A model generated the notes under the pieces. That model saw only the letters and a program-made list of their open reading frames with translations. It did no database searches and was not told the DNA's origin. A stretch of 64,000 bases of DNA. Origin: Planctomycetota bacterium. Its GTDB lineage: Bacteria; Planctomycetota; UBA1135; UBA2386. A program made the translations under genes and the position numbers. Below, piece by piece: positions 50,338-63,999 of this stretch (position 1 is its first letter; the number at the start of each line of letters is the position of its first letter). The stretch is from NCBI GenBank assembly GCA_965228735.1, contig OZ245838.1:5568001-5632000 (forward strand). The letters are read 5' to 3'.

Positions 50338-51250
50338 GGTCCGCGGTCAGGATCGCGTGGGCGTTGACGACGGTGACGGGCAGGTGCGCGTGCTGCACGA
50401 AGTGCTCGACGTGACGGCCGGGCCCGACGTTGACGAAGCGCGTGACCCCGTGACGTTCGTGCAGGGTCCGAATCGCGGCCGCGAAGTCGAAGGGCGCCGC
50501 GACGTTGTCGGCGAGCTCGCGGGCGAGTTCGGTTCGACCTCCGAGTTCGCACTGGGTCTGACTCGAATAGATGCGGACGCCGTCCGCGGGCAGGAGCGGC
50601 GCTCGGGCCAGCGATCGCAGCAGCTGGTCGGCCAGCGGTCGCCAGGCCGGGCCGTGCAACCCGCACGGCGCCAGGTCGAAGAGGCGCAGCCCGCGGGCGA
50701 TCAGGGCGCAACGCGTGGTCTTCTCGTTCGCCGGATCGACGGGCAGCGCGACCATGCGTTCGGACAGCCGACTGTGGTGCCGTGCGAGCGGGCCGAGGGC
50801 GGCAATTGCCCGGTCGGCCGCGGTCCGGTCCGCGGCGAACGCGACGATCGCGCGCCCCGTATCGCCGCGCGGGGCCTGCGGCGGCAGGTTCGCGAGGAAC
50901 GTGAGCAGGTCGTGGAAGTCGGCGGACCCGGCGGCCAGCGTGCGGGCCACGTTGCCGATCGAGTAGCCCGTGTGCCACGTCGCGGCGAGGCCACGCGCTT
51001 GCAGCGCGTGGGCCGTGCCGAGCTGCATCGCGGCAACGGCCAGCGCCGGCCACCGCCAGTCGCGCGCGTCTCGCAGCACGCGTCCGCCGGCGAGGAGCGC
51101 CGCGCTCGTTCTCGCGAACTCCGGATCGGCGCCGAACACGCGTTCCGCGCGGCCCCACAACGACCGGAACTCGGGTAACGCGAGGCTGCTGCCGAAGTCG
51201 ACGGCACGCTGCACGCCGTCGAGACCCGCGAACACGAACCCGGTCGTCAC
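50318..51250 (-). CDS. Divergent FabD/acyltransferase-like protein
   Basis: GTG 51250 overlaps the upstream stop. FVFAG, GYSIG nucleophile elbow, PCGLHG, P.DF..AI..L, FVNVGPG match the FabD/AT layout. Confidence 0.7.
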   Translation of the reverse strand: MTTGFVFAGLDGVQRAVDFGSSLALPEFRSLWGRAERVFGADPEFARTSAALLAGGRVLRDARDWRWPALAVAAMQLGTAHALQARGLAATWHTGYSIGNVARTLAAGSADFHDLLTFLANLPPQAPRGDTGRAIVAFAADRTAADRAIAALGPLARHHSRLSERMVALPVDPANEKTTRCALIARGLRLFDLAPCGLHGPAWRPLADQLLRSLARAPLLPADGVRIYSSQTQCELGGRTELARELADNVAAPFDFAAAIRTLHERHGVTRFVNVGPGRHVEHFVQHAHLPVTVVNAHAILTADLTARSA

Positions 51251-51762
51251 GTCTTGTTGAGTGTCGCGGTGCCGTTGGCAACCGACGCGTTGTCGAACGT
51301 GATCGTCACGTTGGCGGTGATCTGAGTCGCGTTCCAGGTGCCGGTGAGCGCGAAGCGATCGACCGCGCCGGGGATCCCGGTCCCATTCAGCGTCAGCGTT
51401 CCGTCGCTGGCGAGCGAACCGGTGACGGTGCCGTAGACCGTCGACGTGATGCTGACGAGGTTGGCGTCGGTCATGCTGATGTTCGCCGTGAAGTTTTCCA
51501 ACGCCGGATCGGTGCCGCCGAACACGTTGCCGTCCATGTCGAAATCGACGCTGAACGTCGAGCCGCTCTGGGTGACCGTCATCGTGACGTTGCCGGTGCT
51601 GGCGAACGTGGTGTTGGTCCAAGTTCCGGACCACGTCCCGAGGTAGGTCGAAGCGGTGAAGGTGCCGCCGCCTCCACCGCCGCTGCTGCCGCTGCAGCCG
51701 GCGAGGAAGAACGGGGTCAGCGCGAGCGCGCCGGCGAGAATACGGGTGGCTAGTCGTCCCAT
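51247..51762 (-). CDS. Ser/Thr-rich beta-barrel-like lipoprotein (paralog A)
   Basis: Lipobox FLAG-C and Gly linker; GTWSGTWTNTT..STGNVT, GNVFG..DP. Confidence 0.8.
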   Translation of the reverse strand: MGRLATRILAGALALTPFFLAGCSGSSGGGGGGTFTASTYLGTWSGTWTNTTFASTGNVTMTVTQSGSTFSVDFDMDGNVFGGTDPALENFTANISMTDANLVSITSTVYGTVTGSLASDGTLTLNGTGIPGAVDRFALTGTWNATQITANVTITFDNASVANGTATLNKT

Positions 51763-51811
51763 CGCCGCGTGCAGCGGCAGGAGCAGCCCGTCGACCGCCA
51801 ACGAATCGGAG

Positions 51812-51840
51812 AAAAAGAGCCGAGCGGACGCGGCGGCCCT
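51812..51840 (-). terminator. Possible intrinsic terminator between the two lipoprotein paralogs
   Basis: On the minus strand, a GGGCCG...CGGCTC stem is followed by TTTTT, immediately after the stop of 51841..52362. Confidence 0.35.
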
Positions 51841-52362
51841 CTACGGCGTCTTCATCAACGTCGCGTAGCCCGTCTGGACGGAGCCGTTCTCGCCGCGGAT
51901 CGTCGAGTTGATCGTGATCGTGTCCGCGAGGACCGAGCCGATGAGTTCGAAGCTCTCGGAGCTCGAGGGCACGTCCGTGCCGAGAACGGTGATGACGCCG
52001 AAGCCGTCGAGGCTGCCGGTCAACGTGCCGAACGAGTCGGATCTGACGCTGATCAGGTCCGCCGAACCGGCGCCAACAGCGAGTTCGAACGTCTCCTCTT
52101 CCGGGTCCAACGTGCCGAAGATGTTGCCGGTGATCTCGAAGTCGACGGTCATGGTCATCTCGTCGAACGTGACCATGAGGGTGATGTTGCCCGTCGCGCC
52201 CGACGTGGCGTTGGTCCACGTGCCGGTCCACTCGCCGACCCAGACCAGCGGGTTGAACGTGATCGAGACCGGGGTTTCGTCGGTGCTGCTGTTACTGCAG
52301 CCGCCGGTCGCGAACGCGAGAGCGAGCAGCGGCAAGGCGAGGGCGGAGGGGCGCGCAGACAT
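51841..52362 (-). CDS. Beta-barrel-like lipoprotein (paralog B)
   Basis: Lipobox TGG-C; GEWTGTWTNAT..TGNIT, GNIFG..DP; collinear with 51247..51762. Confidence 0.8.
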   Translation of the reverse strand: MSARPSALALPLLALAFATGGCSNSSTDETPVSITFNPLVWVGEWTGTWTNATSGATGNITLMVTFDEMTMTVDFEITGNIFGTLDPEEETFELAVGAGSADLISVRSDSFGTLTGSLDGFGVITVLGTDVPSSSESFELIGSVLADTITINSTIRGENGSVQTGYATLMKTP

Positions 52363-52421: not shown

Positions 52422-52976
52422 TCAGACGTCCCCGGGCGCCGTCGCCGGCCGGCGAGCCAACAGGTGTTGCCGGACCGCCCGGATCGGCACGCCCTCGGCG
52501 CCGTGGCCGTACTCGATGAGCCGGAGTTCGCCGCGGATCGCGTCGAGCAGTTCGCCCGGCCTCAGCAGGAAGTCCGGATTGCGCGGCCTGCCGTGGCGTT
52601 CGTGGCCCGCCGCGAAGGTCTCGTAGAGCAGCAGACCGCCCGGGGCGACGCTCCGGACGATCGTCTCGAGCAGCGGGCGCCAGAGGTAGTTGGTCACGAC
52701 GACGGCGTGGAACGTCCGGCCGGCGAGCGGCCACGGCGCGCCCTCGAGGTCGGCCTCGACGATCTCGAGCCCGGGGCGTCGCAACTCGCGGAGTCGCGTC
52801 ACGTCACGGTCGACCGCGACGACCGGATGACCGCGGTCGAGGAACAGCCCGGTGTGTCGACCGCCGCCGGCCGCGACGTCGAGCACGGGACCCTCGGGTG
52901 TGAGGTGCTCGGCCCAACGGCGAATCGCGGGTGCGGGCCGTTCGTTCGTCGTGCGCTCGTCGTGCATCTCAGCCAT
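52422..52976 (-). CDS. Class I SAM-dependent methyltransferase
   Basis: VLDVAAGGGRH, VAVDRD, ADLE..PWP, VVTNYLWRP, GG.L.YETF, P.NPDFLL.PGEL. Confidence 0.88.
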   Translation of the reverse strand: MAEMHDERTTNERPAPAIRRWAEHLTPEGPVLDVAAGGGRHTGLFLDRGHPVVAVDRDVTRLRELRRPGLEIVEADLEGAPWPLAGRTFHAVVVTNYLWRPLLETIVRSVAPGGLLLYETFAAGHERHGRPRNPDFLLRPGELLDAIRGELRLIEYGHGAEGVPIRAVRQHLLARRPATAPGDV

Positions 52977-53157
52977 CGTTTCGTACGGGAAGTCCCGTGC
53001 GGTTACTCCCGCAAGCAGACGATCGCCAGCTCGAAGCGGGCCGCTTCTCGATCATGGGCTTTGTACTTCGGGTTCTGGCATGCCGATACAACGCCGTTCG
53101 CACCCGGAGAGGAGGGGCGGACACCGGCGCACGGACTACGAGGAGGAGGCGCCCCGA

Positions 53158-54792
53158 ATGGCCCAGGGACAACCGCTTTCCGCGGCACACGAACTCAACG
53201 ACACGGCACTGCGCGTGCTGATGATCGACGACGATCCGACTGACGCGTATCTCGTGCGCGCGCGGCTGCTCGACGGGATCAAACAGGCCCGTGTTGCGGA
53301 CGAACTCGAGTTCACCAACGCCGAGACGCTGAGCGAGGGGCTCGAGATCGCGACGACCGCGACGTTCGACGTGATCCTGCTCGACCTCGGTCTGCCGGAC
53401 GGCCAGGGGATCGAGAACGTCGAACGCGTGCTCGCTCGGGTGGCTGGCGTGCCGACGATCGTGCTCACGGGGCTCGTCGACGAGAAGGTCGCGATCGAGG
53501 CCCTGCGCATCGGCGCGCAGGACTACGTCGTGAAGGCCGACCTCGGCGGTCGCACGCTCATTCGCGCGGTCGCGTACGCACTCGAGCGCCATCGGCTCGT
53601 GCAGGAGATCGAGCGGGCACGCTGCGAGGACAACGAGGTCAAGGATCGCTTCCTGTCGCACATCTCGCACGAACTGCGCACGCCGCTCACGGCAGTGATG
53701 TCGTTCGCGTCGATCATGCAGGAGGGCATCGCGGGGCCGCTGACCTCCGAGCAGGAGGAGTATCTCGGCATCATCCGCCGCAACGCTGAGCAGCTGAAGC
53801 ACGTGATCACGTCGCTCATGGACGTGACCCGGGCGGACGCGGGCAAGCTGCAGTGTGACCTTCGCATCTCCGACCCGGGGAGTATCGCGCGCGACGCTGC
53901 GGATGCGTTCCGGCAACCCGCGGCGGACGCCGGCATCGGGTTGACGACCATCGTGACTCCGGGGGTTGGGCCGATCGTTGCCGACTCCGACAAGCTCGCG
54001 CAGGTCCTGTCCAACCTGGTCGCGAACGCGATCGAGTCTACGCCCGAGGGCGGCAACATCGAGGTCGGGATCGCGCCCGACCCGGATCGCGGTGAACGGT
54101 TGCGCTTCTCGGTTCGCGATACCGGTTGCGGCATCCCCGAGGGTGAGGTCGAGATGGTCTTCGAGCGCATGCACCAGGTCGGCGAGCCGCGCGACGTGAG
54201 CCGCAACGGCCTCGGCCTCGGACTGCACGTCTGCAAGGAGATCGTGCGCTTGCATGGTGGCGAGATCGGGGTCGAGAGCGCGCTGGGAACGGGCAGCACG
54301 TTCTGGTTCTCGGTCCCGCTCTACTCGTTGAGCACGTTCGTGCAGCGCGTGATCGTCGCGAACGACCGCGTGCAGCCGGGGCTGTGCCTCGTGACCGCGA
54401 AGGTGCGGCCCGAGACCGCAGTCGCTCGGGCCAAGGGGCCCGGGACCGCGGTCGACGAGGTCGCCGGTCTCGCGCGGAAGTGTCTGATCGCGATCCACGA
54501 CGTCGTTCTGCCGATCGGCTCCGGCGCGGACGGTGCCAACGCGGTCTACATCCTCGCGCGCACCGACGAAGCCGGCGGCGGCGCGTTCGTCGACCGATTG
54601 CGCGGTGAGCTCGCGGATCACCCCCGGCTGCTGCGCAACGGATTCGAAGTGGACGTGAGTCTCGACTACCTCGAGTTCGGCGAGCCGCCGAGCGCGATCG
54701 ATCAGGGAGTGCTGGAGATGACGGGTTTCGTCAACGCCTGCATCACGGGCGACGTCGAACAGGAACAGGGGTGCCGCGGGAGTAAGCTCTGA
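53158..54792 (+). CDS. Hybrid REC-histidine kinase with degenerate GGDEF-like C-terminal domain
   Basis: AGGAGGAGG RBS; REC (IDDD, LLDLGLPD, GAQDYVVK); HisKA SHELRTPL; N, G1 and G2 boxes (NLVANA, DTGCGI, GLGLGL). Confidence 0.9.
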   Translation: MAQGQPLSAAHELNDTALRVLMIDDDPTDAYLVRARLLDGIKQARVADELEFTNAETLSEGLEIATTATFDVILLDLGLPDGQGIENVERVLARVAGVPTIVLTGLVDEKVAIEALRIGAQDYVVKADLGGRTLIRAVAYALERHRLVQEIERARCEDNEVKDRFLSHISHELRTPLTAVMSFASIMQEGIAGPLTSEQEEYLGIIRRNAEQLKHVITSLMDVTRADAGKLQCDLRISDPGSIARDAADAFRQPAADAGIGLTTIVTPGVGPIVADSDKLAQVLSNLVANAIESTPEGGNIEVGIAPDPDRGERLRFSVRDTGCGIPEGEVEMVFERMHQVGEPRDVSRNGLGLGLHVCKEIVRLHGGEIGVESALGTGSTFWFSVPLYSLSTFVQRVIVANDRVQPGLCLVTAKVRPETAVARAKGPGTAVDEVAGLARKCLIAIHDVVLPIGSGADGANAVYILARTDEAGGGAFVDRLRGELADHPRLLRNGFEVDVSLDYLEFGEPPSAIDQGVLEMTGFVNACITGDVEQEQGCRGSKL

Positions 54793-54817
54793 TCGTCGAG
54801 GGCGGCGTCGCCGCGGC

Positions 54818-56659
54818 TCACTGACGCAGACGCGCGAGCTGGTGGCGGACGCGCTCCGCGATCCCGGCCGCGCCCTCGCGATCGGCGCGGGCGGCGATGC
54901 GATCGCCGAGAGCGATCGCTTCTGCCCGCTCGTCCGTGAGCAGCAGCGCGCGGAACAGGGCGTACTCGTCGAGCAGTTCGGGCGCCGGCACCGCATTGAG
55001 GCGGCGCGCGAGTTCGACTGCGCGCGGGCCGTCGCGCACCGCCGCGTCGGGCGCCTGCCCGAGCACCTGCGCGAGGTTGCGCAGCAGTTCGCGGTTGTCC
55101 GGCGCGAGCGCGACGCCGCGTTCGAACCAGTCGCGGGCCGCAGCGAACTCGCCCGCGATGCCGGCCATGACGCCGAGGTTGTTGAACGTCAGAGGGTCGT
55201 CGGGTCGCGCGGTGAGCGCTCGGTCGAAGTGCGCACGCGCCGCCCTGAAGTCGCCGTTCCGGGCGAAGTGGTTGCCGACCGCGTTGTTCGATTCGAACGC
55301 GTCAGGGTAGATCGCGACCGCCCGGCGATGATGCTCGAGTCCGTCGCCGGGGGCGCCGCGGGTGTCGAGCAGGTTGCCGAGGCAGGTGTGCGCGAGCCAC
55401 GCCTCCGGTTCGGCTGCGATGGTCGCATGCCAGAGCTGATCGAGGTTGCTGAACAGATGGGCGCGGCGCCAGGTCAGTGCGCCGAGGACAGCGACGATGA
55501 TCAGGGCGACCGCGGTCGCGATCGTGCGGCTGCGGGCAGTGCGGCCGAACAGCGAGAGGCCGCCGCATACAACGAGCGCGATCGGGCCGAAGCTCGGCAG
55601 GTACTGGAAATGGTCCGCGGCGAACGCGTACCGCAGGTAATAGAAGTCGACGAGCCCGCTCACGGGCAGCAGGTTGCCGACGAATGTGAGTACGGCGAGG
55701 CCCGCTGCGAGCGTGGTGCGCGACCGCCCGCGCAGGATGGTGATAGCGCCGAAGGTGAGAACCGCGAGCAGCAGGATGGTCGGCAGCCAGCCGAGCGCCG
55801 TGCCCGCGCCGATCTCCCACTTCGCGTAGACGAACGCCAGGTCGGCTGGCCACAGCAGCTGTCCCGCATAGAACGCGACGTTCTGACCGAGCAGCGCCAA
55901 CCGCTCCGGCGGCGTGAGGGCCCAGTCGTGACCGACCGCGCCCTCGCCTCGTTCCATGACGATCGTGAGTGCCGCGAACCCGAGCGTCAGGGCGGCGAAC
56001 GGGAGCAGGCCGCGGCCCACCGATCGCGCCGCTTTGGTGGGGGAGCCGGCCGCGCGATGCCGCCAGATCGCGATCGCCGCGAGCGCGACGGGGAGCATCA
56101 GGGTCGCCGTCTTGGCGAGCAGCGCGAGCGCGAACGTCGTCGACGCGAGCACGAGCGTGCGGGGGCGCGGCTCGTCCAGCCACGAGAGCCACACGTGCGC
56201 GGTGAGCAGGTAGAGCACCGTCGAGAGCGTGTTCTTGCGTTCGACGAGCCAAGCGACCGACTCCACGTGGACGGGATGCAGCAGGAACACGAGCGCGGCC
56301 ACGAATCCGAATGGCAGGCCGAGCCGCTGCAGGAGGCGGCCGAACAGCAGCGCGGAAAGCGCGTGCAGCAGCACGTTCTCGACGTGCATGACCGTCAGGT
56401 CGAGCCCGAACAGCTGCGCGTCCAGCCACCAGGAGGTGTAGGTCAGCGGGTAGTACTGGATGACAGCACCTGGCTCGCACCAGATGCGGACCAGACCCGG
56501 AACGGAACGCAACGTTTCGTTGTCGCGGATCCAGTCCGTGTCGTCCCAGAGGAACTCACCCCCGAGGGCCGGTCCGTAGGCCGCGAGCGCGAGGCCCGCC
56601 AGCGCGAGGAACTGCACGGCGGGGTGGCTGAGGAGGCGACGTGGCACGATGGTCGGCAT
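54818..56659 (-). CDS. TMTC-like GT-C membrane glycosyltransferase with TPRs
   Basis: F.WDD, Y.PLT..S..LD, H..NVLLH, F.LHP.HVESVAW..ERK, L.P..L...Y, ADHFQYLP; many TM helices; C-terminal TPRs. Confidence 0.85.
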   Translation of the reverse strand: MPTIVPRRLLSHPAVQFLALAGLALAAYGPALGGEFLWDDTDWIRDNETLRSVPGLVRIWCEPGAVIQYYPLTYTSWWLDAQLFGLDLTVMHVENVLLHALSALLFGRLLQRLGLPFGFVAALVFLLHPVHVESVAWLVERKNTLSTVLYLLTAHVWLSWLDEPRPRTLVLASTTFALALLAKTATLMLPVALAAIAIWRHRAAGSPTKAARSVGRGLLPFAALTLGFAALTIVMERGEGAVGHDWALTPPERLALLGQNVAFYAGQLLWPADLAFVYAKWEIGAGTALGWLPTILLLAVLTFGAITILRGRSRTTLAAGLAVLTFVGNLLPVSGLVDFYYLRYAFAADHFQYLPSFGPIALVVCGGLSLFGRTARSRTIATAVALIIVAVLGALTWRRAHLFSNLDQLWHATIAAEPEAWLAHTCLGNLLDTRGAPGDGLEHHRRAVAIYPDAFESNNAVGNHFARNGDFRAARAHFDRALTARPDDPLTFNNLGVMAGIAGEFAAARDWFERGVALAPDNRELLRNLAQVLGQAPDAAVRDGPRAVELARRLNAVPAPELLDEYALFRALLLTDERAEAIALGDRIAARADREGAAGIAERVRHQLARLRQ

Positions 56660-56831
56660 CGCACGATACCGTCCCAACCGGTGTTCTCACAGGCGACTAC
56701 GTGAGTGTCCGGAGGGCCGGTGCCGGCGGGCCCGGAAATCCAGGGGAAACCCCTAAGGGTCCTCCCCGGCCGTTGCCGATGGCCCGGATCCGCCGCACTC
56801 GCCAAACCCCGCGGCGTCTCGTGAATCCCCC

Positions 56832-57518
56832 GTGCTCGAAACCCTCCCTCGCGCTCCCGTTCCGGCCACGCCGATCCCTCGCAGCACGCCGTTCGCGGCG
56901 TTGCGATACCACAACCACCTCGCGAAGGCAGCGGACTCGGCATTCGCGGGCATTGCGGAGCTCGCCGGTCGCGACTCGGGTGCAACGATCGCGATCGTCG
57001 TCCTCGATCGGAACGGCGAGGATCGCACCGCTGCGGTTCATGGTTGTGATCCCGACATGGTGCCGCCCGTCTGGTCCGACGGCGCTGCCGACGACTTCCG
57101 CGCGGCGATCACCGATGCGCAACCCGGCCGGGCGGTCCGGTTCCGCATCGCGATGCCGATCGTGGACGTCGATGGCGAGAGCCTCGGCACGCTGCGCCTC
57201 TACTGGGTGGTCGCCGACGAGTCGGTGCAGTTGAACGCGGACCAGGAACGGCGGCTGGAGCTGCTCGTCGCGCAAGCCTCGCACCTCGCGCAGCAGCAGC
57301 ACACTGCCGCGCTGCTCGCCGCCGGTCTCGAGCGCCTGCGCCGCGCCGACGACCTCGTGCCGATGTGCAGCCACTGCCACGACGTCCGCAACGACGACGA
57401 CCAGTGGGTGCGCGTCGAGCGCTATCTCGGTCAGATCAGCGGTGCCCGCGTTTCACACGGGATCTGCCCGGAGTGCTTTCTCGAGCACTATCCGACCGTC
57501 GCGGCCGACGGCGCCTGA
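56832..57518 (+). CDS. GAF-like protein with C-terminal Cys/His putative zinc-binding signalling domain
   Basis: Degenerate GAF (MPIVDVDGESLGTL), then PMCSHCHDVR.DD..W..VE.Y......VSHGICPEC, a motif often found at the end of signalling proteins. Start is uncertain. Confidence 0.7.
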   Translation: MLETLPRAPVPATPIPRSTPFAALRYHNHLAKAADSAFAGIAELAGRDSGATIAIVVLDRNGEDRTAAVHGCDPDMVPPVWSDGAADDFRAAITDAQPGRAVRFRIAMPIVDVDGESLGTLRLYWVVADESVQLNADQERRLELLVAQASHLAQQQHTAALLAAGLERLRRADDLVPMCSHCHDVRNDDDQWVRVERYLGQISGARVSHGICPECFLEHYPTVAADGA

Positions 57519-57561: not shown

Positions 57562-58518
57562 TCAACGCAGCGAGAGCCAGAGGCGCTGCAGCTGGCGCAC
57601 GTTCCCCGGCGCGTCGACGTAGCTCGTGCGGTTGTGCGCGAGCGTGCGGTTGTTCACGAACATCGCATCGCCACGCTCGAGCCGGAAGCGGATCACGTTC
57701 TCCGGCCGCGCCAGCAGCTCGTCCAGCAGGTCGAACGCGCGGCGCTCGTCCACCGTCAGGGGGTTGCCGGCCTTCTCCTGACCGCGCTCGATCCAGTAGC
57801 GCATGTAGCGGAACAGCACGCCGCCCGTGCGATCACAGCGCGCGAAGACGGGGAAGCGGTTGCGCAGCAGCGCCGCGTGGGTCTTCTCGATGCCCGGCGT
57901 GACGACGTCGCGGATCCATGGGCGGGAGAGGATCTCGAGGGCCCACGGCGCTTCCTGCTGCAGCGTGTCGAACACGCGCAGCGCGTTGCTCACGAGGCTG
58001 TCGCCGCCGCTCGTGCTCGGCTGTTCGCAGAGCAGCCCGACGACGTCCGGGACGGCGTCGACCGAGCTGCTGTCCGTGTGATACGCGGTCTCCGCGTTCG
58101 TCATCGAGACCGGCACGGCCTCCTTCGTGTACGACTTGCCGCGATCGACGACCGGGTAGAGCCGGCCGTACTGCAGCATCGGGTCTCCGATCGCGCATCC
58201 GATCGCGAGGTAGAGACACCTTTGCTGTTCCGCGCTCAGGCCGAGGTTGCCGAGGCCGCGCAGCTGGCACAGCCCGTAGCCGTGCTCGAGCTGGTCGCGC
58301 AGCCGGTCGCCGAACGCGGCGAGGTGCGGCAAGACCGCTGCGTCCCATTCGAACGTGTCCGCCGTGAGTTCGGGGTGCTGCGCCAGGTAGGCGATGAACT
58401 CGTCCGCGACGATCACCGGCAGCTGCCGGCGCCAGCTGCCCAACGTCGACGTCGTCCATCGTCCGGGGGCGGTAGCGGGAGCCAGCGCGGGGGCACTGAC
58501 GGGGGTGATCGTCGTCAT
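57562..58518 (-). CDS. TauD/TfdA (clavaminate-synthase-like) Fe(II)/2-oxoglutarate dioxygenase
   Basis: HTD facial-triad start, D.VGLLC, GG.S.V, L..GD..FVNN...AHNR, R.L.RLW. Confidence 0.9.
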   Translation of the reverse strand: MTTITPVSAPALAPATAPGRWTTSTLGSWRRQLPVIVADEFIAYLAQHPELTADTFEWDAAVLPHLAAFGDRLRDQLEHGYGLCQLRGLGNLGLSAEQQRCLYLAIGCAIGDPMLQYGRLYPVVDRGKSYTKEAVPVSMTNAETAYHTDSSSVDAVPDVVGLLCEQPSTSGGDSLVSNALRVFDTLQQEAPWALEILSRPWIRDVVTPGIEKTHAALLRNRFPVFARCDRTGGVLFRYMRYWIERGQEKAGNPLTVDERRAFDLLDELLARPENVIRFRLERGDAMFVNNRTLAHNRTSYVDAPGNVRQLQRLWLSLR

Positions 58519-58563
58519 GGCGGCCTCGAAGGGAGAAGGGGAGAAGGGGGGCTGTTCCGGCGG

Positions 58564-59322
58564 TTACTTCGTCAGTTGGAACGCGAGGTGCAGGGGCTTG
58601 TCGCGCAGCGGCCCGAACCAGTCGGGATCGAGCTCCAGGTGCTCTTCCGTCACGTGCAGTTCCGCGACCAGCGGCATCCGGTCGAACCCGCCGTCGGCGA
58701 GCCCGGACATGTAGTCCTCGACCGTCTTGTGGACGCTGCGGACGCGCACGCTCTTGCCGTCGCGGCGCCAGATCTCGCCCTCGAACTGCACGTCGCGGCC
58801 GGAGTAGTAGCCGCGCTGCTGCGCGTCGAAGTAGAACGGCGCCGTCTTCTGCCCGAGGAAGGCGAGCGAGGGGTGCGGCACCGCGAACACGAAACGCCCG
58901 CCCGGCCGCAGCACGCGGTGGACCTCGGCCATCGTGTGGCGCGTCTGCTCGAGCGACAGGTAGTTGAACAGGAACACCGCGACGACGAGGTCGAACGATT
59001 CGGCGCCGAAGCTGTCGAGGTTGCTCGCGTCGCCGGCGACGTACTCGATGCCGAGCTGTTCGCGGCTCTCGCGCTGCTTGGCCGCTGCGATCATCTCGGT
59101 CGACACGTCGACACCGAGGATGGTGCGCGCGCCGCGCTGCTTGAGCTTGCGGGCGAAGTAGCCTTCACCGCAACCGAGGTCGAGCACGTCCTGACTCTCG
59201 ACCGGCGTGCACCAGTCGAGCAGGAACGGCCGCGCCGTGTAGTCCGACAGCAGCACCGGCTCGGTGCGCTGCCAGTCCCCGCTGGCGCCGTCGTAGATCT
59301 CCTTGGTCGTGGCCATGATCAT
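58564..59322 (-). CDS. Class I SAM-dependent methyltransferase (possibly DsyG/DSYE-like)
   Basis: ATG 59322 overlaps the upstream TGA; VLDLGCGEG, GVDVS.EMI, GDA, FDLVVAVFLFNYL, LRPGGRFVF. Confidence 0.88.
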   Translation of the reverse strand: MIMATTKEIYDGASGDWQRTEPVLLSDYTARPFLLDWCTPVESQDVLDLGCGEGYFARKLKQRGARTILGVDVSTEMIAAAKQRESREQLGIEYVAGDASNLDSFGAESFDLVVAVFLFNYLSLEQTRHTMAEVHRVLRPGGRFVFAVPHPSLAFLGQKTAPFYFDAQQRGYYSGRDVQFEGEIWRRDGKSVRVRSVHKTVEDYMSGLADGGFDRMPLVAELHVTEEHLELDPDWFGPLRDKPLHLAFQLTK

Positions 59323-60143
59323 GCGATCCGTGCCTTCCGCGGCATCGAGGAGCGCGCGCCATCGAGCTTGAAGTAGATGCGATCCCAGAACTCGCAGCGC
59401 AGCTCGAGCGCCTTGAGCATGCCGTTGCGCAGCTCGGCGAGGCCGCCCGGCTCCTTCGCCAGGTCCTTCGCGATCGCCAGCAGGTCCTGCTGGTGCTGAT
59501 CGTCGACGAGGCAGTGCAGCTCGAAGAACACGTAGTCCTCGCGGGCCAGCTCGCCGCACTGGCGAATGCCCTTCAGCAGCTGCTGGTAGACCGGCTTCAC
59601 GATGTGCTCGGTGCCGAGCCCGAGCGCGCCGACGGCTTCGGCGGGAGTCGCGGTGCTGAGGAACTCGAGGAACGAGCTGCGCCACTTCTTCGCCGCTTCC
59701 GTCGGTCGCGCCAGGGTCCGGTCCGTCACGCCGATCGCGTGGCAGAAGCGGCGGAAGAGCACGGGGTGCGGAATACCCATCACCGATTCCGGATCGATTC
59801 CGACCTCGCGCAGCTCCGCGCTCTCCTCCTCGTCGAGGTGACCCTTCTCCTCCTCGAGGTTCTTCAGCAGCAGCAGCCGGTGGTCCTTTCGATCCAGGCG
59901 ACGAATCACCATGCGGAGGTAGTTGGGGAACCACGCGGCGTAGCCGCTGTACTCGTGGGCGTACTGCTGGAGCACGCGAACCGGATCCATGAAGTCGACC
60001 TGGGCGAACGACTTCAGGTACGGATGATGAACGGCCGGGTGCTCGAGCGACTCGCGAACGAGGTCGTCGATCTGACGGTCGAGGTCGGCGGAACGGGCCG
60101 AGCGGGTCGTGGCTGCGGCGTTGAGGGGTTGCAGGCTGGTCAT
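59319..60143 (-). CDS. Heme-oxygenase-like diiron oxidase (PqqC/CADD/TenA superfamily, 'iron-containing redox enzyme')
   Basis: HP, F..YL, NLEEEKG...H, ALGLGTE and FFELHCLVDDQH supply an E,H,E,H,D,H diiron ligand set as in CADD; ends R..FWD. Confidence 0.85.
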   Translation of the reverse strand: MTSLQPLNAAATTRSARSADLDRQIDDLVRESLEHPAVHHPYLKSFAQVDFMDPVRVLQQYAHEYSGYAAWFPNYLRMVIRRLDRKDHRLLLLKNLEEEKGHLDEEESAELREVGIDPESVMGIPHPVLFRRFCHAIGVTDRTLARPTEAAKKWRSSFLEFLSTATPAEAVGALGLGTEHIVKPVYQQLLKGIRQCGELAREDYVFFELHCLVDDQHQQDLLAIAKDLAKEPGGLAELRNGMLKALELRCEFWDRIYFKLDGARSSMPRKARIA

Positions 60144-60333
60144 TGCGCTTCGGATGCGTGACGTGTGCTGGTTGGGAGGGCGGATCGAGGACTCGACCCG
60201 CGTCACGAAGAGCTACGTTCCCCCCTTAAGAGCGGGGCTTCGTCACGCCCCGATCCGGAGCCGCAAGTCGCTTGCTGGAAACGGTCTGCACCAATCTCAG
60301 ACTTTTTCCGATATTCGAAGAGGTGGACCCCGA

Positions 60334-62922
60334 ATGGACCTCGAACAGACCCCTTCCGTGACTCCGACGGACCGTCCGCCACGGCGCGCCGCGCTCGTCG
60401 GCGCGGCCGGGCTCGCGGTCGCGTTCGCGGCGATGCTCGTGGGGATTACGGCGGTGCCTCCGGTGTCGCCGGATCTGGCGCCGGGGCCCGATGAGCCGGC
60501 GGGTCCGGACGCGGCCGCGATCGAGCGGTCTGCCGTGCCGGGGGCGGTGGACCGGGTTGCCGCGGACCGGAGTCCGGCACGGCGGGTGACCGGGCGGTGC
60601 GTGGCATGGACGTCCGGCGAACCCCTCTCCGGATGCGCCGTGACCCTGTCCGTCGAAGGGGCCGACGCCGAAGTCCATGCCGCCGCGGACGGGCGGTTCG
60701 AGTTCGTGCTGCGCCGCGATCTGGGCGTGTCCGTCAGGGCGGGCGCGGCGCTGCGGGTCGAAGTGCGACGCCACGATCGGGTCATGGTCGCCCGTACCGT
60801 CGAACTCACGGCCGGGTCCGTCGGCGCGGGGCAGCGGGATGCTGTCGTCGCGCTCGGCGACGTCCGGCTGCGCCGCGGCACGCGCGTGGTCGGCGCGGTC
60901 GTCGACGCGAACGGCGTGCCACGAGACGGCGCCCTCGTGCACCTGCGCGGGCGGTCCATCGACCGCGCCGATGGCTGGCAGGAACGTCGCAGCGGGCGGG
61001 CGCGCTCCGGGTTCGATGGCGCATTCGAACTGCCGGCGGCGCTGCCCGCGGGCACCGCCGTGGTCACGGTCACGAACGCGGCGCCGCTCGTCAGCGGGGT
61101 GACCCAGGCACTGCACGGCAGCGTGCACCACTGCGAACTCGTCGTCGCCGCGAGCCGGTCCGTCGATCAGATCGAGGGAGTCGTGTTCGACGCGGTCGGT
61201 GCACCGGTTCCGGACGCGATCGTCGTCGCGCGAACCGCGCGGCCGGGTGCGGCGGGCGGAGCGGCGAGCGCGACGTCGACGACGGACGGTGCGGGCCGAT
61301 TCCGTCTCGTTCGCCCCCCGCTCGCGGATGTCGAGGGGGCAGTGCAGCTCGAGGTGCTCGGGCGCGACGCTTCGCAGCACAGTCGCGACGAGGTGACGAC
61401 CCGCTGGGGCGACCACGACGCCGTCGTGCGCCTCGCCGCCGGCCGCGGGCCCGGCAACGCGCTGCGGGTCGTCGATGCCGAAACCGGGTCGCCGATCGCC
61501 AACTACCGCGTGCAATGCGTGCCGCTCACGGGGCTGCGTTCGGCCGGAGCCGGCGCGATGCGCGACGTCGCACCGGCCGCCGGACGGGCCGGCCGCGCCG
61601 GCGGGAGCGTGGGCGATGGTTGGACCTGGCTCGCGCCGGTGCGCCGCGGGCCCAACGCGGTGATCGTGTGGCCCGACGATCCGCGGTGGCTGCCGAACCT
61701 GCCCGTCGTCTTCGAACACGACGTCGCCGCGGGGCCGTGGGTCGTCGCGCTCGAGCGCGCCGAAGCGTGCCGGGTACGGGTGCTCGCCGGCGGCTTGCCG
61801 GTCACGGGGGCCGAACTCACGCTCGTGCGGCCGGCCTCCGGCGCCCGGCTCGATCGCACGCACCGCGACCTGCTCGCGCAGGGTGGGATCCGCGGCGCGG
61901 TCAACGTCGAGCTCGCGACGGCGACGACCGACGAGGACGGGCTGGCGACGCTGCGCTGGTTTCACGACGAGGCGGCGCTCGAACTGCGCGTGGCCGGTGC
62001 GGGCATCACAGCACACGCCGTCTCGGGTGTGCGGCTCGGGCCGCGAGTGCTCACCGTCACGGTCGAGCGCGCAGCTCGGCTCGAGGTCCGGCAGGCGACC
62101 GTTGCAGCAGTGCGAGCCGTGCGCGTCGTGCTGCGTCGGAGCGATGGTGCGCTGGCCGCGCCGGAGCCATGGCAGCGCGCGTGGCGCGTCGAGCCGGGCA
62201 AGGCCGCGACGTTCGCCGCGCCGGCGGGCGAGTTCGACGTGCACGTCGCGGTCCCGATGCGCGGTGACGATCGCCGGGACGGCGCGTTCCACGAGGTGCC
62301 GGTTCCCGTTGCCCGCGTCGATCTCGCGGCCGGGGCGACGCGGTCGTTGACGCTCGATCTCGACGAACTGTTGCGACCGGCCGAACTCGTCGGGACCGCG
62401 TTCGTCGACGGTGAACCTGCCGACCACGTCGTACTCATGGCCGGCGCGCCGGACGGTCACGGCCGCGTGCGCGCGCAGCGTTCGCTCGACGGCGGCACGG
62501 ATGAGCGCGGCTGGTATCGCTTCGAGGGCCTGCCCCCGGGCCACTACGCGATCGAGTTGCGGGTCCTGATCGGCGGCCGGCAGGTCGCGGTGCCGATCGA
62601 GCGCGGGGTGTGGCGGTGGCTTCCGGGTGGCCGGACGCACCGGCACGCGCCGATCGACGTGCGGACCGCAGCGGTGGACGCCGTGGTGCGGGACCGTGCG
62701 GGCGAGCCCGTGCGGCGGCAGTTCGTGGAGCTGCGTTCGGCGAGCGGCGTCGCGATCCTCGGTGAGCTCGATGGCAACGGCCGTCTGCAGCTCGCCGGCG
62801 TGCCCGTCGGTCGCTACCGCGCGCGATTGCGATCGCTCGACCCGGACGCCCCGATCGTGCCGCTCACCGAGCTGGTCGTGCCCACCCAACCCGGGGCCGC
62901 GCTCGAGCTGCGAGCACGCTGA
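60334..62922 (+). CDS. Membrane-anchored protein with tandem carboxypeptidase-regulatory-like domains
   Basis: GAGG RBS before ATG 60334; TM, Pro/Ala linker and repeated G.V.D..G.P / TD..G.F units. Confidence 0.75.
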   Translation: MDLEQTPSVTPTDRPPRRAALVGAAGLAVAFAAMLVGITAVPPVSPDLAPGPDEPAGPDAAAIERSAVPGAVDRVAADRSPARRVTGRCVAWTSGEPLSGCAVTLSVEGADAEVHAAADGRFEFVLRRDLGVSVRAGAALRVEVRRHDRVMVARTVELTAGSVGAGQRDAVVALGDVRLRRGTRVVGAVVDANGVPRDGALVHLRGRSIDRADGWQERRSGRARSGFDGAFELPAALPAGTAVVTVTNAAPLVSGVTQALHGSVHHCELVVAASRSVDQIEGVVFDAVGAPVPDAIVVARTARPGAAGGAASATSTTDGAGRFRLVRPPLADVEGAVQLEVLGRDASQHSRDEVTTRWGDHDAVVRLAAGRGPGNALRVVDAETGSPIANYRVQCVPLTGLRSAGAGAMRDVAPAAGRAGRAGGSVGDGWTWLAPVRRGPNAVIVWPDDPRWLPNLPVVFEHDVAAGPWVVALERAEACRVRVLAGGLPVTGAELTLVRPASGARLDRTHRDLLAQGGIRGAVNVELATATTDEDGLATLRWFHDEAALELRVAGAGITAHAVSGVRLGPRVLTVTVERAARLEVRQATVAAVRAVRVVLRRSDGALAAPEPWQRAWRVEPGKAATFAAPAGEFDVHVAVPMRGDDRRDGAFHEVPVPVARVDLAAGATRSLTLDLDELLRPAELVGTAFVDGEPADHVVLMAGAPDGHGRVRAQRSLDGGTDERGWYRFEGLPPGHYAIELRVLIGGRQVAVPIERGVWRWLPGGRTHRHAPIDVRTAAVDAVVRDRAGEPVRRQFVELRSASGVAILGELDGNGRLQLAGVPVGRYRARLRSLDPDAPIVPLTELVVPTQPGAALELRAR

Positions 62923-63176
62923 AGACCGGCAGCGCTCTCCCGCCCGGGCGACTCGTCCGTCAGGGAGATTCCCGACCGGCTTGATCCCTGGTCGAAGAAT
63001 TCGACACCCGTGAGACAGCGGCGGACCGCCCCATGGGGTCGCGGGATCCGCACGCCGGTTCGTTGCCAGGGGCACCAGATCGAGCCTCGATCGGCCGGGT
63101 TCTCGGTCAACCGTTCGATATCGCAGCACATCGCGGGACGGGACCCGCGGGGAATCAGAACGGGAGACGAGTGCGC

Positions 63177-63533
63177 ATGGCGATCCAGACCTACCTGGCT
63201 ACGACGTTGGCTGCCGCGCTGCTGGTGGCAGCGCCGATCGATGACATGACGGGGGGGCCCGCGGGGAACCCGTCGATGGCGGTGAATCCGGACCCGCTGA
63301 CGGCCGGCGGTTCCGCGACGGTGACCTACTCGGACCCGAGCCAGGCGAACCAGTCGATCGTCGTCGACATCGATAACGGCATGCAGCGGGGCACGCAGAC
63401 ATCGACGCTAGTCATCGAACTCGATGAGCACGGTGAAGGCAGCGCAGTCTGGGAAGTGCCGACAACTTGGTTCCTGGCCAACTTCAACGCGCCCAACGTT
63501 GCGGAGATCGGTTGCATGATCTCGCACAACTAG
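63177..63533 (+). CDS. Small secreted hypothetical protein
   Basis: GGAG RBS; signal MAIQTYLATTLAAALLVAA; beta-rich mature part. Confidence 0.65.
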   Translation: MAIQTYLATTLAAALLVAAPIDDMTGGPAGNPSMAVNPDPLTAGGSATVTYSDPSQANQSIVVDIDNGMQRGTQTSTLVIELDEHGEGSAVWEVPTTWFLANFNAPNVAEIGCMISHN

Positions 63534-63549: not shown

Positions 63550-63999
63550 CTATTCGCCGAGCAGCTGCGTGATGTTGTCGAGCGCGATTACCGCGTTGCC
63601 GCGGATCGCGTCGCTCGCGTCGTCGGTGCGCGAAGCGTGCAGCGCTTGCACGCCGTGGTGCATCTGAGCCGAGAGTTGGCGCAACGCATCGAGTCGCGAT
63701 TCGGCGTCCAGCGCCTGGTCGAGCACCAGATCGCCGAGATACGAGTGCATGTCGGGGAAGTCCGTCGGGCTGAACGGTGACGGGCTCGCGACTTCGACCC
63801 GCAGTTCGTCGAGCGCGCGCTGCGCGGCACGCCCCACGCGGTTCGCCTCTGGCGCGACGGTACGCAGCGCCAAGATCGAGCCGATCAGATCGCCAGTGAT
63901 CCGGCGTTGTGCCGTGTTCCGGTCTACCTCAGGACTATCGGCGTCCATGAGGATGTCGACGGCATCCTGATACGGCAGCGTGAACGTCGAGTAGCGAAT
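63550..63999 (-). CDS. Hypothetical protein (3' part; frame is open to the window edge)
   Basis: The frame of ORF 63550..63948 continues without a stop to the window end (IRYSTFTLPYQDAVDILMDADSP...). Confidence 0.55.
   Translation of the reverse strand: MRYSTFTLPYQDAVDILMDADSPEVDRNTAQRRITGDLIGSILALRTVAPEANRVGRAAQRALDELRVEVASPSPFSPTDFPDMHSYLGDLVLDQALDAESRLDALRQLSAQMHHGVQALHASRTDDASDAIRGNAVIALDNITQLLGE

What the first reader, a model, noticed from the sequence alone, without database searches (positions are those of the whole stretch)
57562..60143. Compact diiron oxidase + methyltransferase + 2OG-dioxygenase operon: candidate undescribed small-molecule (possibly sulfonium/DMSP-type) pathway
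Seen: three co-oriented genes, the first two coupled by an ATGA overlap. They encode a heme-oxygenase-like diiron enzyme with a full E/H/E/H/D/H ligand set and a ~20-aa insert between the first E and H, a SAM methyltransferase, and a TauD/CAS-like dioxygenase. No NRPS, PKS, pqq or folate genes are nearby. Established: HDO enzymes (UndA, BesC, SznF, CADD) do oxidative decarboxylation, C-C cleavage or N-oxygenation. DMSP synthesis by the transamination route needs S-methylation of MTHB and then oxidative decarboxylation of DMSHB. Inference: the motif WxRxEPxxLSDYTARP...DLGCGEG recalls, from memory and unverified, DsyG/DSYE MTHB S-methyltransferases. If so, the HDO could supply the decarboxylation step and the dioxygenase could further tailor the onium product.
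Basis: partly seen in the sequence, partly recalled or inferred. Interest (0 to 1): 0.8.

Follow-up and report, generated by a model that had tools for sequence, protein, structure and literature searches.

The report
Sensor-linked three-enzyme pathway, not DMSP
Three neighbouring bacterial genes encode a two-iron oxidase, a methyltransferase and an iron dioxygenase that recur together, often fused into one protein, from bacteria to algae; the methyltransferase is not of the DMSP-making DsyG family first suggested, and the trio likely makes an unidentified small N-methylated molecule whose production is probably tied to nitric-oxide-type haem sensing.

Summary
The three genes, the ATGA overlap and the metal ligands are as described, and the module is real. 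Both partners flank the methyltransferase (MT) in 62 of 80 named loci, and 40 of 67 long family proteins fuse all three domains in this order, in cyanobacteria and eukaryotes.

The DsyG/DMSP idea fails. A DsyGD-type protein shares only the SAM-binding core with the MT (28% over 107 aa), lacks the recalled motif and is sarcosine/dimethylglycine-MT-like. The window MT is ToxA/XrdM-like and keeps their amide-N-methylation residues.

The recurring neighbour is an H-NOX haem sensor. All 13 cassette-bearing genomes among 121 relatives have one, 10 within 6 kb, including this genome. The link is partial: only 2 of 19 fully flanked TauD-type loci show it. In five loci the oxidase and MT sit with an ATP-grasp-like gene in glycan-type clusters, which hints at a stable acid product.

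Best reading: an undescribed pathway to a small N-methylated, oxidised metabolite under signalling control (0.5). An NOS-independent NO source is the bold rival (0.2).

The parts
59319..60143 (-). Heme-oxygenase-like dimetal oxidase (HDO), 274 aa; ligand set E99/H126/E179/H210/D214/H217; CADD/BesC/HrmI-like fold; lacks the CADD donor residues
   Evidence: (pLDDT 94)
58564..59322 (-). Class I SAM methyltransferase, 252 aa, ToxA/XrdM-like; invariant Y10, F117, N120, Y121, H245; start overlaps the HDO stop (ATGA)
   Evidence: (TM 0.81 to ToxA)
57562..58518 (-). TauD/CAS-type Fe(II)/2-oxoglutarate dioxygenase, 318 aa; H147-x-D149, H295, R308; invariant R203/R237/R240/R297; nearest solved relatives FrbJ and PDB 7n7v
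60109..62922 (+). Divergent carboxypeptidase-regulatory-like (PF13620) gene, true start probably further downstream; first gene of the syntenic block between the cassette and the H-NOX/kinase genes beyond the window end; associated by synteny, not shown to be part of the pathway
63033..63533 (+). Small protein without a Pfam match, conserved in the same syntenic block
63550..63999 (-). 3' end of the gene downstream of a sigma-70 region-2 gene (anti-sigma-like by position, inferred); beyond it, outside the window, lie the sigma factor, the divergent H-NOX (G000:C1:5633244-5633708) and a histidine kinase

Best explanation
The three genes form a self-contained, widely conserved enzyme module that is fused into one protein in other organisms, and they likely convert a common primary metabolite, probably an amino acid or amide, into an unidentified small N-methylated and oxidised acid whose production is probably switched by signalling inputs. 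Shown: the gene set, its fusion, the intact metal sites, the ToxA-type methyltransferase site and the H-NOX neighbourhood. Inferred steps: (1) the HDO activates O2 at a dimetal site and oxidises an amino-acid side chain, by C-C cleavage as in BesC or N-oxygenation as in HrmI; (2) the MT puts a SAM methyl on a nitrogen next to a carbonyl, as ToxA and XrdM do; (3) the Fe/2OG enzyme hydroxylates or desaturates an anionic intermediate. The order of the steps is unknown. The H-NOX/kinase pair, and the EF-hand, globin and receiver domains on fused homologues, most likely couple the pathway to gas, redox or calcium signalling; whether the sensor controls the enzymes or reads their product is not resolved.
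For: Pathway. Of the best 80 of 504 GTDB loci, 70 have the HDO, 42 a TauD-type and 28 a second, Pfam-unmatched Fe/2OG-like enzyme; no locus has both dioxygenase types and 62 have all three activities. The second enzyme has an invariant H-x-D...H...R-x-S pattern and PhyH-like atlas neighbours. Among 149 session proteins of 430 aa or more, 67 carry the family MT and 40 of these are HDO-MT-TauD fusions, including Microseira, Brasilonema, Ca. Kentrum and Thalassiosira exigua. No shared transporter or extra enzyme emerged from clustering the 80 loci or from reading the neighbours of 34 selected loci. N-methylation. Best fold match is ToxA (TM 0.81), then XrdM. N120/Y121 and F117 align with ToxA N115/Y116 and XrdM F112/H115/Y116 and are invariant in 24 of 24 homologues; XrdM H115A and Y116F are inactive and the residues hold the carbonyl beside the target nitrogen (bioRxiv 10.1101/2024.01.12.575338, passages). 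HDO. HrmI (Z 24.0, rmsd 2.9, 224 aligned), CADD (23.7, 2.0, 211) and BesC (22.7, 2.1, 215) lead the list; characterised HDOs act mostly on amino or fatty acids (PMC13108848). Stable acid product. In L067, L069, L073, L079 and L179 the HDO and MT lie beside a conserved ATP-grasp-like ORF (35-73% identical among loci; Pfam E only 0.002-0.04), with DegT aminotransferase and glycosyltransferase genes in four of the five, and beside flagellar hook genes in L179. Signalling link. All 13 of 121 relatives with the MT have an H-NOX, 10 within 6 kb; EF-hand, globin, REC and REC-Hpt fusions exist.
Against: No substrate, product or activity was measured; fold and ligand set do not fix HDO chemistry (PMC13108848). 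The Y10 to ToxA Y7 equivalence is inferred from position, and the H245 to XrdM H238 match lies in a weak stretch of the alignment. The ATP-grasp assignment is below Pfam cut-offs, and that variant lacks the TauD enzyme, so its product may differ. The H-NOX link is absent from 17 of 19 fully flanked TauD-type loci, and 5 cassette-bearing genomes have no H-NOX match at all. This genome's H-NOX is five genes away and has a degenerate haem motif. Kin are not independent: the 80 loci are rich in Nostoc. No useful expression evidence.
Confidence: 0.5

Rival explanations
1. The trio is an NO-synthase-independent source of nitric oxide (or another haem-binding gas) for the neighbouring H-NOX sensor: N-methylation, diiron N-hydroxylation and an iron-dependent rearrangement give an unstable N-oxidised product that releases NO, as SznE/SznF chemistry does.
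For: H-NOX lies within 6 kb in 10 of 13 relatives, and two different H-NOX subfamilies (17-21% identical) occupy that place; 27 of 28 loci of the second-dioxygenase type have one; 6 of 9 cyanobacterial cassette genomes have one about 1 kb away. Fusions carry EF-hands and a globin, echoing Ca/calmodulin control of mammalian NOS (PMC4436077, passages). SznE plus SznF (MT, HDO, cupin) make an intermediate that decays to NO (PMC11705231, passages), and 5 of 80 loci add a cupin. This genome has no NOS match. The NO source for most bacterial H-NOX proteins was unclear in 2015.
Against: The HDO is far from SznF (profile E 0.04; Z 16.6 against 24.0). None of the 5 cupin-bearing loci has an H-NOX nearby. 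36 of 36 other H-NOX loci fetched have none of the enzymes. Many cassettes have no H-NOX nearby or in the genome. NOS and cassette are not exclusive: G287 has both. The glycan-type variant suggests a stable acid. REC-MT fusions suggest that the kinase may control the enzyme and not the reverse.
Confidence: 0.2
2. The pathway is real but its nearness to H-NOX in this genome is incidental synteny within a signalling-rich block, or the enzymes remove the sensor's signal; the product serves general physiology (stress protection, surface decoration).
For: Five genes and 5.9 kb separate MT and H-NOX, on opposite strands; the sigma/anti-sigma/PF13620 block also flanks the cassette in G018, where a canonical H-NOX sits on the other side; 34 of the 108 relatives without the MT also have H-NOX.
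Against: The link recurs in Planctomycetota, Cyanobacteriota, Myxococcota and a Burkholderiaceae genome, in different orders and on separate MT clades. One H-NOX within 6.2 kb of a given site in 7.19 Mb has a chance of about 0.002, though shared ancestry weakens this.
Confidence: 0.2
3. The pathway makes a sulfonium or other onium osmolyte: DMSP through a DsyG-like S-methyltransferase and an HDO decarboxylase, or a carnitine-like compound.
For: The best NCBIfam matches of the dioxygenase are the onium-substrate enzymes TmpA, gamma-butyrobetaine dioxygenase and trimethyllysine dioxygenase; near-identical DNA occurs in macroalgal and coral metagenomes; the DMSHB decarboxylase of most producers is unknown (PMC11306096).
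Against: The MT is not DsyG-like. The genome has no DsyG orthologue (best 30.7 bits). Even a planctomycete protein 39% identical to DsyG was inactive (PMC11306096). The onium-dioxygenase scores are 37-58 bits against cut-offs of 268-415; FrbJ and 7n7v are much closer (E 1e-32 and 6e-30 against 3e-18), and the conserved site residues are arginines. The family occurs in named freshwater and terrestrial lineages (Microcystis, Nostoc).
Confidence: 0.05
4. The HDO is a CADD-type self-sacrificial p-aminobenzoate synthase and the neighbours serve folate-related metabolism.
For: CADD is the best sequence match (E 1e-23) and among the best folds.
Against: CADD Tyr27 and Lys152, the donors of the product (PMC13108848), align with L43 and L189; TIGR04305 scores 52 against a cut-off of 200; no folate gene recurs in the 80 loci.
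Confidence: 0.02

Closest known systems
ToxA (toxoflavin N-methyltransferase) and XrdM (xenorhabdin amide N-methyltransferase)
   Same: Best sequence and fold matches of the MT (E 1e-22; TM 0.81 for ToxA); Asn/His-Tyr carbonyl-binding pair and stacking Phe conserved.
   Different: Only about 24% identical; no toxoflavin or NRPS cluster context; many invariant charged residues suggest a small polar substrate (inference); fused to oxidases.
BesC/BesD and HrmI/HrmJ (lysine-acting HDO with an Fe/2OG partner)
   Same: 3-His/3-carboxylate HDO of the same structural neighbourhood (Z 22.7-24.0). Pairing with an Fe/2OG enzyme: BesD as upstream enzyme is in the listing; that BesD and HrmJ are Fe/2OG enzymes is recalled.
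   Different: 17-20% identity, far below the BesC cut-off (22.5 of 500 bits); the partner is a TauD-type enzyme with HxD, not a halogenase; a methyltransferase is obligatory; no NRPS context.
SznE/SznF (streptozotocin N-nitrosourea, NO-releasing)
   Same: Same three kinds of activity: methyltransferase, HDO and mononuclear iron enzyme; HDO-cupin fusions occur in 2 of 80 loci.
   Different: HDO distant from SznF (Z 16.6); the third enzyme here is a 2OG-dependent TauD type, not a cupin; SznE was not compared; no NO shown.
CADD / CT610 p-aminobenzoate synthase
   Same: Nearest sequence relative of the HDO; same ligand set.
   Different: Donor Tyr27 and Lys152 absent; 20-residue insert; no folate context.
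FrbJ and PDB 7n7v (recalled as TtnM) Fe/2OG hydroxylases
   Same: Nearest solved relatives of the dioxygenase; the RY-x-R motif is shared with FrbJ.
   Different: No phosphonate or polyketide cluster context; substrate unknown.
DsyG/DsyGD/DSYE MTHB S-methyltransferases
   Same: Class I SAM-binding core only.
   Different: Different MT family (sarcosine/dimethylglycine-MT-like); no shared N- or C-terminal substrate region; no DsyD domain.
NOS + H-NOX + histidine kinase of Silicibacter sp. TrichCH4B
   Same: Precedent for one bacterium making and sensing NO (PMC4436077, passages).
   Different: No NOS match in this genome; gas production by the trio is untested.

Membership tests
DsyG/DsyGD/DSYE | Homology to DsyG over the whole methyltransferase domain (active bacterial members 46-50% identical to the Gynuella protein) | tested here: not met
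   28% over 107 aa, 31 bits, against a DsyGD-type protein; 16 bits on the family HMM; thresholds from PMC11306096. One comparator, recognised by architecture; DSYE not compared directly.
DsyG/DsyGD/DSYE | DsyD (PF04115) decarboxylase domain fused to the MT (DsyGD only) | tested here: not met
   P0002 is single-domain; no PF04115 among the 18 long hits or the top five families of 33 proteins, and seven of the 433-522-aa candidates were read by eye.
DsyG/DsyGD/DSYE | MTHB S-methyltransferase activity | not testable with these tools
   needs an assay
DsyB, MmtN, BurB, TpMMT | Homology to these S-methyltransferases | not tested
P0002 has no PF00891 or SET match among its 18 Pfam families; that DsyB is PF00891-type is recalled, BurB as SET is from the listing.
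HDO superfamily | Heme-oxygenase-like helical bundle | tested here: met
   Model pLDDT 94; Z 22-24 to HrmI, CADD, BesC
HDO superfamily | 3-His/3-carboxylate dimetal ligand set | tested here: met
   E99, H126, E179, H210, H217 invariant and D214 at least 90% in 45 sequences
HDO superfamily | O2 activation at a dimetal cofactor | not testable with these tools
   needs spectroscopy
CADD pABA synthase | Donor Tyr27 and Lys152 | tested here: not met
   L43 and L189 at the aligned places
CADD pABA synthase | TIGR04305 cut-off | tested here: not met
   52.2 of 200 bits
BesC | NF042919 cut-off | tested here: not met
   22.5 of 500 bits
SznE/SznF system | HDO fused to a C-terminal cupin | tested here: not met
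   P0001 is single-domain; fusion seen in L028 and L034, separate cupins in L037, L066, L080
SznE/SznF system | Extra (fourth) carboxylate ligand | tested here: inconclusive
   No further invariant Glu/Asp, but no structure-based alignment to SznF was printed
SznE/SznF system | Arginine guanidino-N-methyltransferase homologous to SznE | not tested
SznE/SznF system | N-nitroso product that releases NO | not testable with these tools
   needs an assay
ToxA/XrdM-type N-methyltransferases | Fold with flap domain | tested here: met
   TM 0.81, E 4e-18 to ToxA
ToxA/XrdM-type N-methyltransferases | Asn/His115-Tyr116 pair and Phe112 | tested here: met
   N120, Y121, F117 aligned, invariant; roles
ToxA/XrdM-type N-methyltransferases | N-terminal Tyr7 | tested here: inconclusive
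   Y10 invariant, but this stretch is outside the printed alignments
ToxA/XrdM-type N-methyltransferases | Methylation of an amide or ring nitrogen | not testable with these tools
   needs an assay
TauD/CAS Fe/2OG dioxygenases | HxD...H triad and 2OG-binding Arg, PF02668 above cut-off | tested here: met
BBOX/TmpA/TMLD onium hydroxylases | Equivalog cut-offs | tested here: not met
   37-58 bits against 268-415
H-NOX sensor (neighbour beyond the window) | Proximal His and YxSxR haem motif | tested here: inconclusive
   PF07700 59 bits, above cut-off; His, Tyr and Ser kept, Arg and the PPxF proline missing (motif names recalled)

The most novel reading that the evidence does not exclude
The HDO-methyltransferase-dioxygenase trio is a nitric-oxide-synthase-independent NO (or other gas) generator, wired to H-NOX sensors in bacteria and fused into a single calcium-regulated enzyme in cyanobacteria, diatoms and other eukaryotes: a second, convergent route to an endogenous gas signal.
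Probability: 0.2. Interest if true: 0.92.

Novelty: new variant of a known kind. Interest (0 to 1): 0.6.

Why it matters
Only about a dozen HDOs have a validated function (PMC13108848). This one comes with its whole pathway as a compact cassette and as natural single-chain fusions that reach eukaryotes, so the product can be found by one expression experiment. If the product is NO or an H-NOX ligand, it answers where many bacterial H-NOX sensors get their signal (stated as unclear in PMC4436077) and offers a candidate calcium-dependent NO source in algae. The negative result also matters: this widespread MT family (3,481 hits at E 0.001 or better including generic MTs; about 1,500 GTDB stretches with the motifs) should not be counted as DMSP synthesis genes.

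Tried and rejected
DsyG/DMSP: rejected by direct comparison. The exhaustive profile search listed all 147 clusters at E 1e-30 or better; none of the candidates that I scanned (33) or read (17) had the DsyGD layout. The paper's DsyG alignment is a picture and its FASTA supplement could not be read, so ratified DSYE, TpMMT, DsyB and MmtN sequences were not compared.

CADD/pABA and BesC orthology: rejected. SznF orthology: not supported.

NOS displacement (cassette in place of NOS beside H-NOX): no pattern. NOS is above cut-off in 12 of 301 cyanobacteria and 1 of 121 relatives; G287 has both systems; no NOS match lay on an H-NOX contig in those listings. The test is weak.

Homology of the two dioxygenase types: none detected (hhalign probability 0.07%), so they look like replacements, not orthologues; both alignments are shallow.

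Expression: X24 gave one partial read (about 6% of the run read), X20 one 193-base contig; uninformative. Promoter/terminator scan: nothing above chance. Viruses: 4 weak loci, none of this family. Plasmids: one record.

Literature: no paper held all terms; one search listed three papers, none describing the cassette in title or abstract start; one search listed seven on SznF/HDOs. The library lacks most subscription journals, so 'undescribed' is provisional. PMC149354 was not held. Source names for the proteins could not be obtained. The MT tree is the quick tree only, with 13 redundant Nostoc-type rows left out. No complex prediction was run, since no binding claim is made.
Full report
OBSERVATION. 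The three minus-strand ORFs are at the stated coordinates: an HDO (60143-59319), a class I methyltransferase (59322-58564) and a TauD-type dioxygenase (58518-57562). Pfam gives PF14518, PF08241 and PF02668 above cut-off. The ATGA overlap is in the DNA. Five of six HDO ligands are invariant and the sixth nearly so in 45 homologues. The E-to-H spacing is about 20 residues longer than in CADD. The dioxygenase triad and 2OG arginine are invariant in 33 homologues. GC content matches the rest of the window. The closest named records are Planctomycetota (80% MT identity), so the host is probably a planctomycete (inference). Near-identical DNA occurs in macroalgal and coral metagenomes.

THE PATHWAY IS REAL. 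The genome scan found 504 loci encoding a relative of the MT and kept the best 80. Among the 50 loci with at least 4 kb on both sides, 39 have all three. The second enzyme matches no Pfam or NCBIfam family, has an invariant H-x-D...H...R-x-S pattern and PhyH-like atlas neighbours (46% of one cluster), and shows no detectable homology to the TauD type. It looks like a replacement for the same step (inference). Fusions settle the link: of 149 session proteins of 430 aa or more, 67 carry the family MT, and 40 are HDO-MT-TauD in the window's order, 11 HDO-MT, 7 MT-TauD, 2 second-dioxygenase-MT and 7 MT with none of these. Named carriers include Microseira, Brasilonema, Ca. Kentrum and the diatom Thalassiosira exigua, plus EukProt entries. 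Many carry EF-hands and the Kentrum protein also a globin.

THE DMSP IDEA FAILS. PMC11306096 (main text parts 1-3 of 11 and supplement file 3 parts 1-2 of 4 read) defines DsyGD as a 490-499-aa protein with PF08241 at 76-175 and PF04115 at 320-469 in the Gynuella enzyme, and reports that a planctomycete protein 39% identical to DsyG was inactive. A PF04115 search of 401 cyanobacterial genomes (150 of 278 matches listed) gave one listed match in a long frame, L129. It encodes a 490-aa protein with PF08241 at 71-170 and PF04115 at 301-453, that is, DsyGD-type by architecture. P0002 aligns with it only over the SAM-binding core, 28% over 107 residues. Its nearest families are sarcosine/dimethylglycine N-methyltransferases. 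The window's genome has no orthologue of it. DSYE, TpMMT, DsyB and MmtN were not compared directly; the paper groups DSYE with DsyG at 38-39% identity. The paper's alignment figure and FASTA supplement could not be seen and bear on this point.

WHAT THE ENZYMES LOOK LIKE. MT: the best sequence and fold matches are the N-methyltransferases ToxA and XrdM (model pLDDT 94). In XrdM, His115 and Tyr116 hold the carbonyl beside the target nitrogen and are essential; ToxA has Asn115/Tyr116 (bioRxiv 10.1101/2024.01.12.575338, passages). P0002 has N120/Y121 at the aligned places, invariant in 24 of 24, with F117 and an invariant N-terminal Y10. N-methylation beside a carbonyl is thus the best guess. HDO: HrmI and CADD tie and BesC follows (Z 24.0, 23.7, 22.7); SznF is well below (16.6). 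The CADD donor residues are absent and family cut-offs are missed. HrmI N-oxygenates lysine and BesC cleaves chlorolysine (PMC13108848, parts 1-3 of 6 read), so an amino-acid substrate is plausible but the reaction type is open. Dioxygenase: FrbJ and 7n7v are far closer than the onium hydroxylases, and four invariant arginines besides the 2OG one suggest an anionic substrate (inference).

THE H-NOX LINK, FOR AND AGAINST. The genome's only H-NOX match lies 1.2 kb beyond the window end, 5.9 kb from the MT, beside a histidine kinase. The whole block (kinase, H-NOX, sigma, downstream gene, small protein, PF13620 gene, cassette) is syntenic in G006 and in G048 of another genus. Among 121 relatives, 13 carry the MT family and all 13 have an H-NOX: 10 within 6 kb, one at 16 kb, two unresolved on short contigs. 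Two H-NOX subfamilies fill this place; the window's type keeps the proximal His but not the whole haem motif. Among 301 cyanobacteria, 9 carry the MT (8 candidates scored per genome, so a lower bound) and 6 have an H-NOX about 1 kb away. Against: the other 3, and two further carriers, have no H-NOX match; only 2 of 19 fully flanked TauD-type loci have one nearby, against 27 of 28 of the second type, which are mostly Nostocales; 34 of the 108 relatives without the MT have H-NOX; and 36 of 36 other H-NOX loci fetched lack the enzymes. NOS and the cassette can coexist. So the cassette often keeps an H-NOX, in four phyla and on separate MT clades (quick tree), but neither needs the other. REC-MT and REC-Hpt-HDO-MT fusions show that the enzymes can be outputs of kinases.

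A THIRD CONTEXT. In L067, L069, L073 and L079 (Myxococcota, Spirochaetota, Prochlorococcus) and in L179 (Indioceanicola profundi plasmid) the HDO and MT have no TauD partner and are followed by a conserved ORF with weak ATP-grasp matches; DegT aminotransferase and glycosyltransferase genes lie beside them in four of the five, TylF-like genes in two, and flagellar hook genes in L179. ATP-grasp enzymes activate carboxylates (established knowledge), so the HDO plus MT product there is probably an acid ligated to an amino sugar (inference from a sub-threshold match). This argues for a stable product and against NO as the module's only output.

MECHANISM AND VERDICT. Most likely (0.5): oxidation of an amino-acid side chain, N-methylation beside a carbonyl and Fe/2OG hydroxylation give a small acid of unknown structure, with calcium, phosphorelay or H-NOX inputs setting when it is made. 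An SznE/SznF-like NO source for H-NOX (PMC11705231 and PMC4436077, passages) stays possible (0.2), as does an incidental or signal-removing link (0.2). DMSP or another onium product is unlikely (0.05). No paper in the held library joined the search terms, but subscription journals are mostly missing. I noted the H-NOX idea, before reading earlier scan notes, which report the same module and link on other DNA; they are not independent support. 'DsyG' was met in no earlier finding and a word search for the glycan variant returned none. Interest 0.6; new variant of a known kind.

Noticed in passing
G000:C1:5633244-5633708 (L081:1462-2061), just beyond the window end: Divergent H-NOX with the proximal His but a degenerate haem motif and a Cys/His-rich C-terminus (recalled as resembling the zinc site of gammaproteobacterial H-NOX proteins), followed by a 118-aa ORF that resembles the N-terminus of the next gene, a histidine kinase without an HNOBA match.
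   Followed up: partly
L067, L069, L073, L079, L179: HDO + MT + ATP-grasp-like gene in amino-sugar/glycan-type clusters; in Indioceanicola profundi beside flagellar hook genes, with a further 294-codon ORF that has no Pfam match.
   Followed up: partly
L012:4496-5494 and 27 other loci; fusions P0123, P0124, L018:6741-8417: A 330-aa Fe/2OG-like protein family with no Pfam or NCBIfam match that replaces the TauD enzyme and can fuse to either the HDO or the MT.
   Followed up: partly
L028:4445-5956, L034; L037, L066, L080: HDO fused to, or accompanied by, a cupin (weak match to gentisate/5-aminosalicylate dioxygenases), an SznF-like layout, in Microcystis, Dolichospermum, Bacteroidota and proteobacteria; none has an H-NOX nearby.
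   Followed up: partly
P0142; P0243, P0244; P0312: Regulatory fusions: EF-hand-globin-HDO-MT-TauD (Ca. Kentrum), receiver-MT, and receiver-Hpt-HDO-MT whose MT part looks degenerate at the SAM-binding motif.
   Followed up: no
L020:4237-5169: A second HDO-like gene (DUF3050) directly upstream of the cassette HDO in a Leptolyngbyaceae genome.
   Followed up: no
L114 (G277:C28) and L042: Apparently decayed copy: MT with truncated HDO, no H-NOX, and an HNOBA fragment.
   Followed up: no
window 56832-57518 (+): Small convergent gene downstream of the cassette with no Pfam match and a C-terminal Cys/His motif pair (CSHC...HGICPEC); true start probably near 57008.
   Followed up: no
window 52852-54996 (+) and 54818-56677 (-): Hybrid receiver-histidine kinase followed by a probable response regulator, and a membrane PMT_2/TPR protein; the cassette sits in a signalling-rich region.
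   Followed up: no
window 51247-52362 (-): Two tandem, similar lipoprotein-like genes of 173-184 aa with beta-rich, Thr/Ser-rich sequence.
   Followed up: no
G000:C1:351251-353365 and 1992297-1993547: Two other weak HDO-family matches elsewhere in the genome (57 and 30 bits).
   Followed up: no
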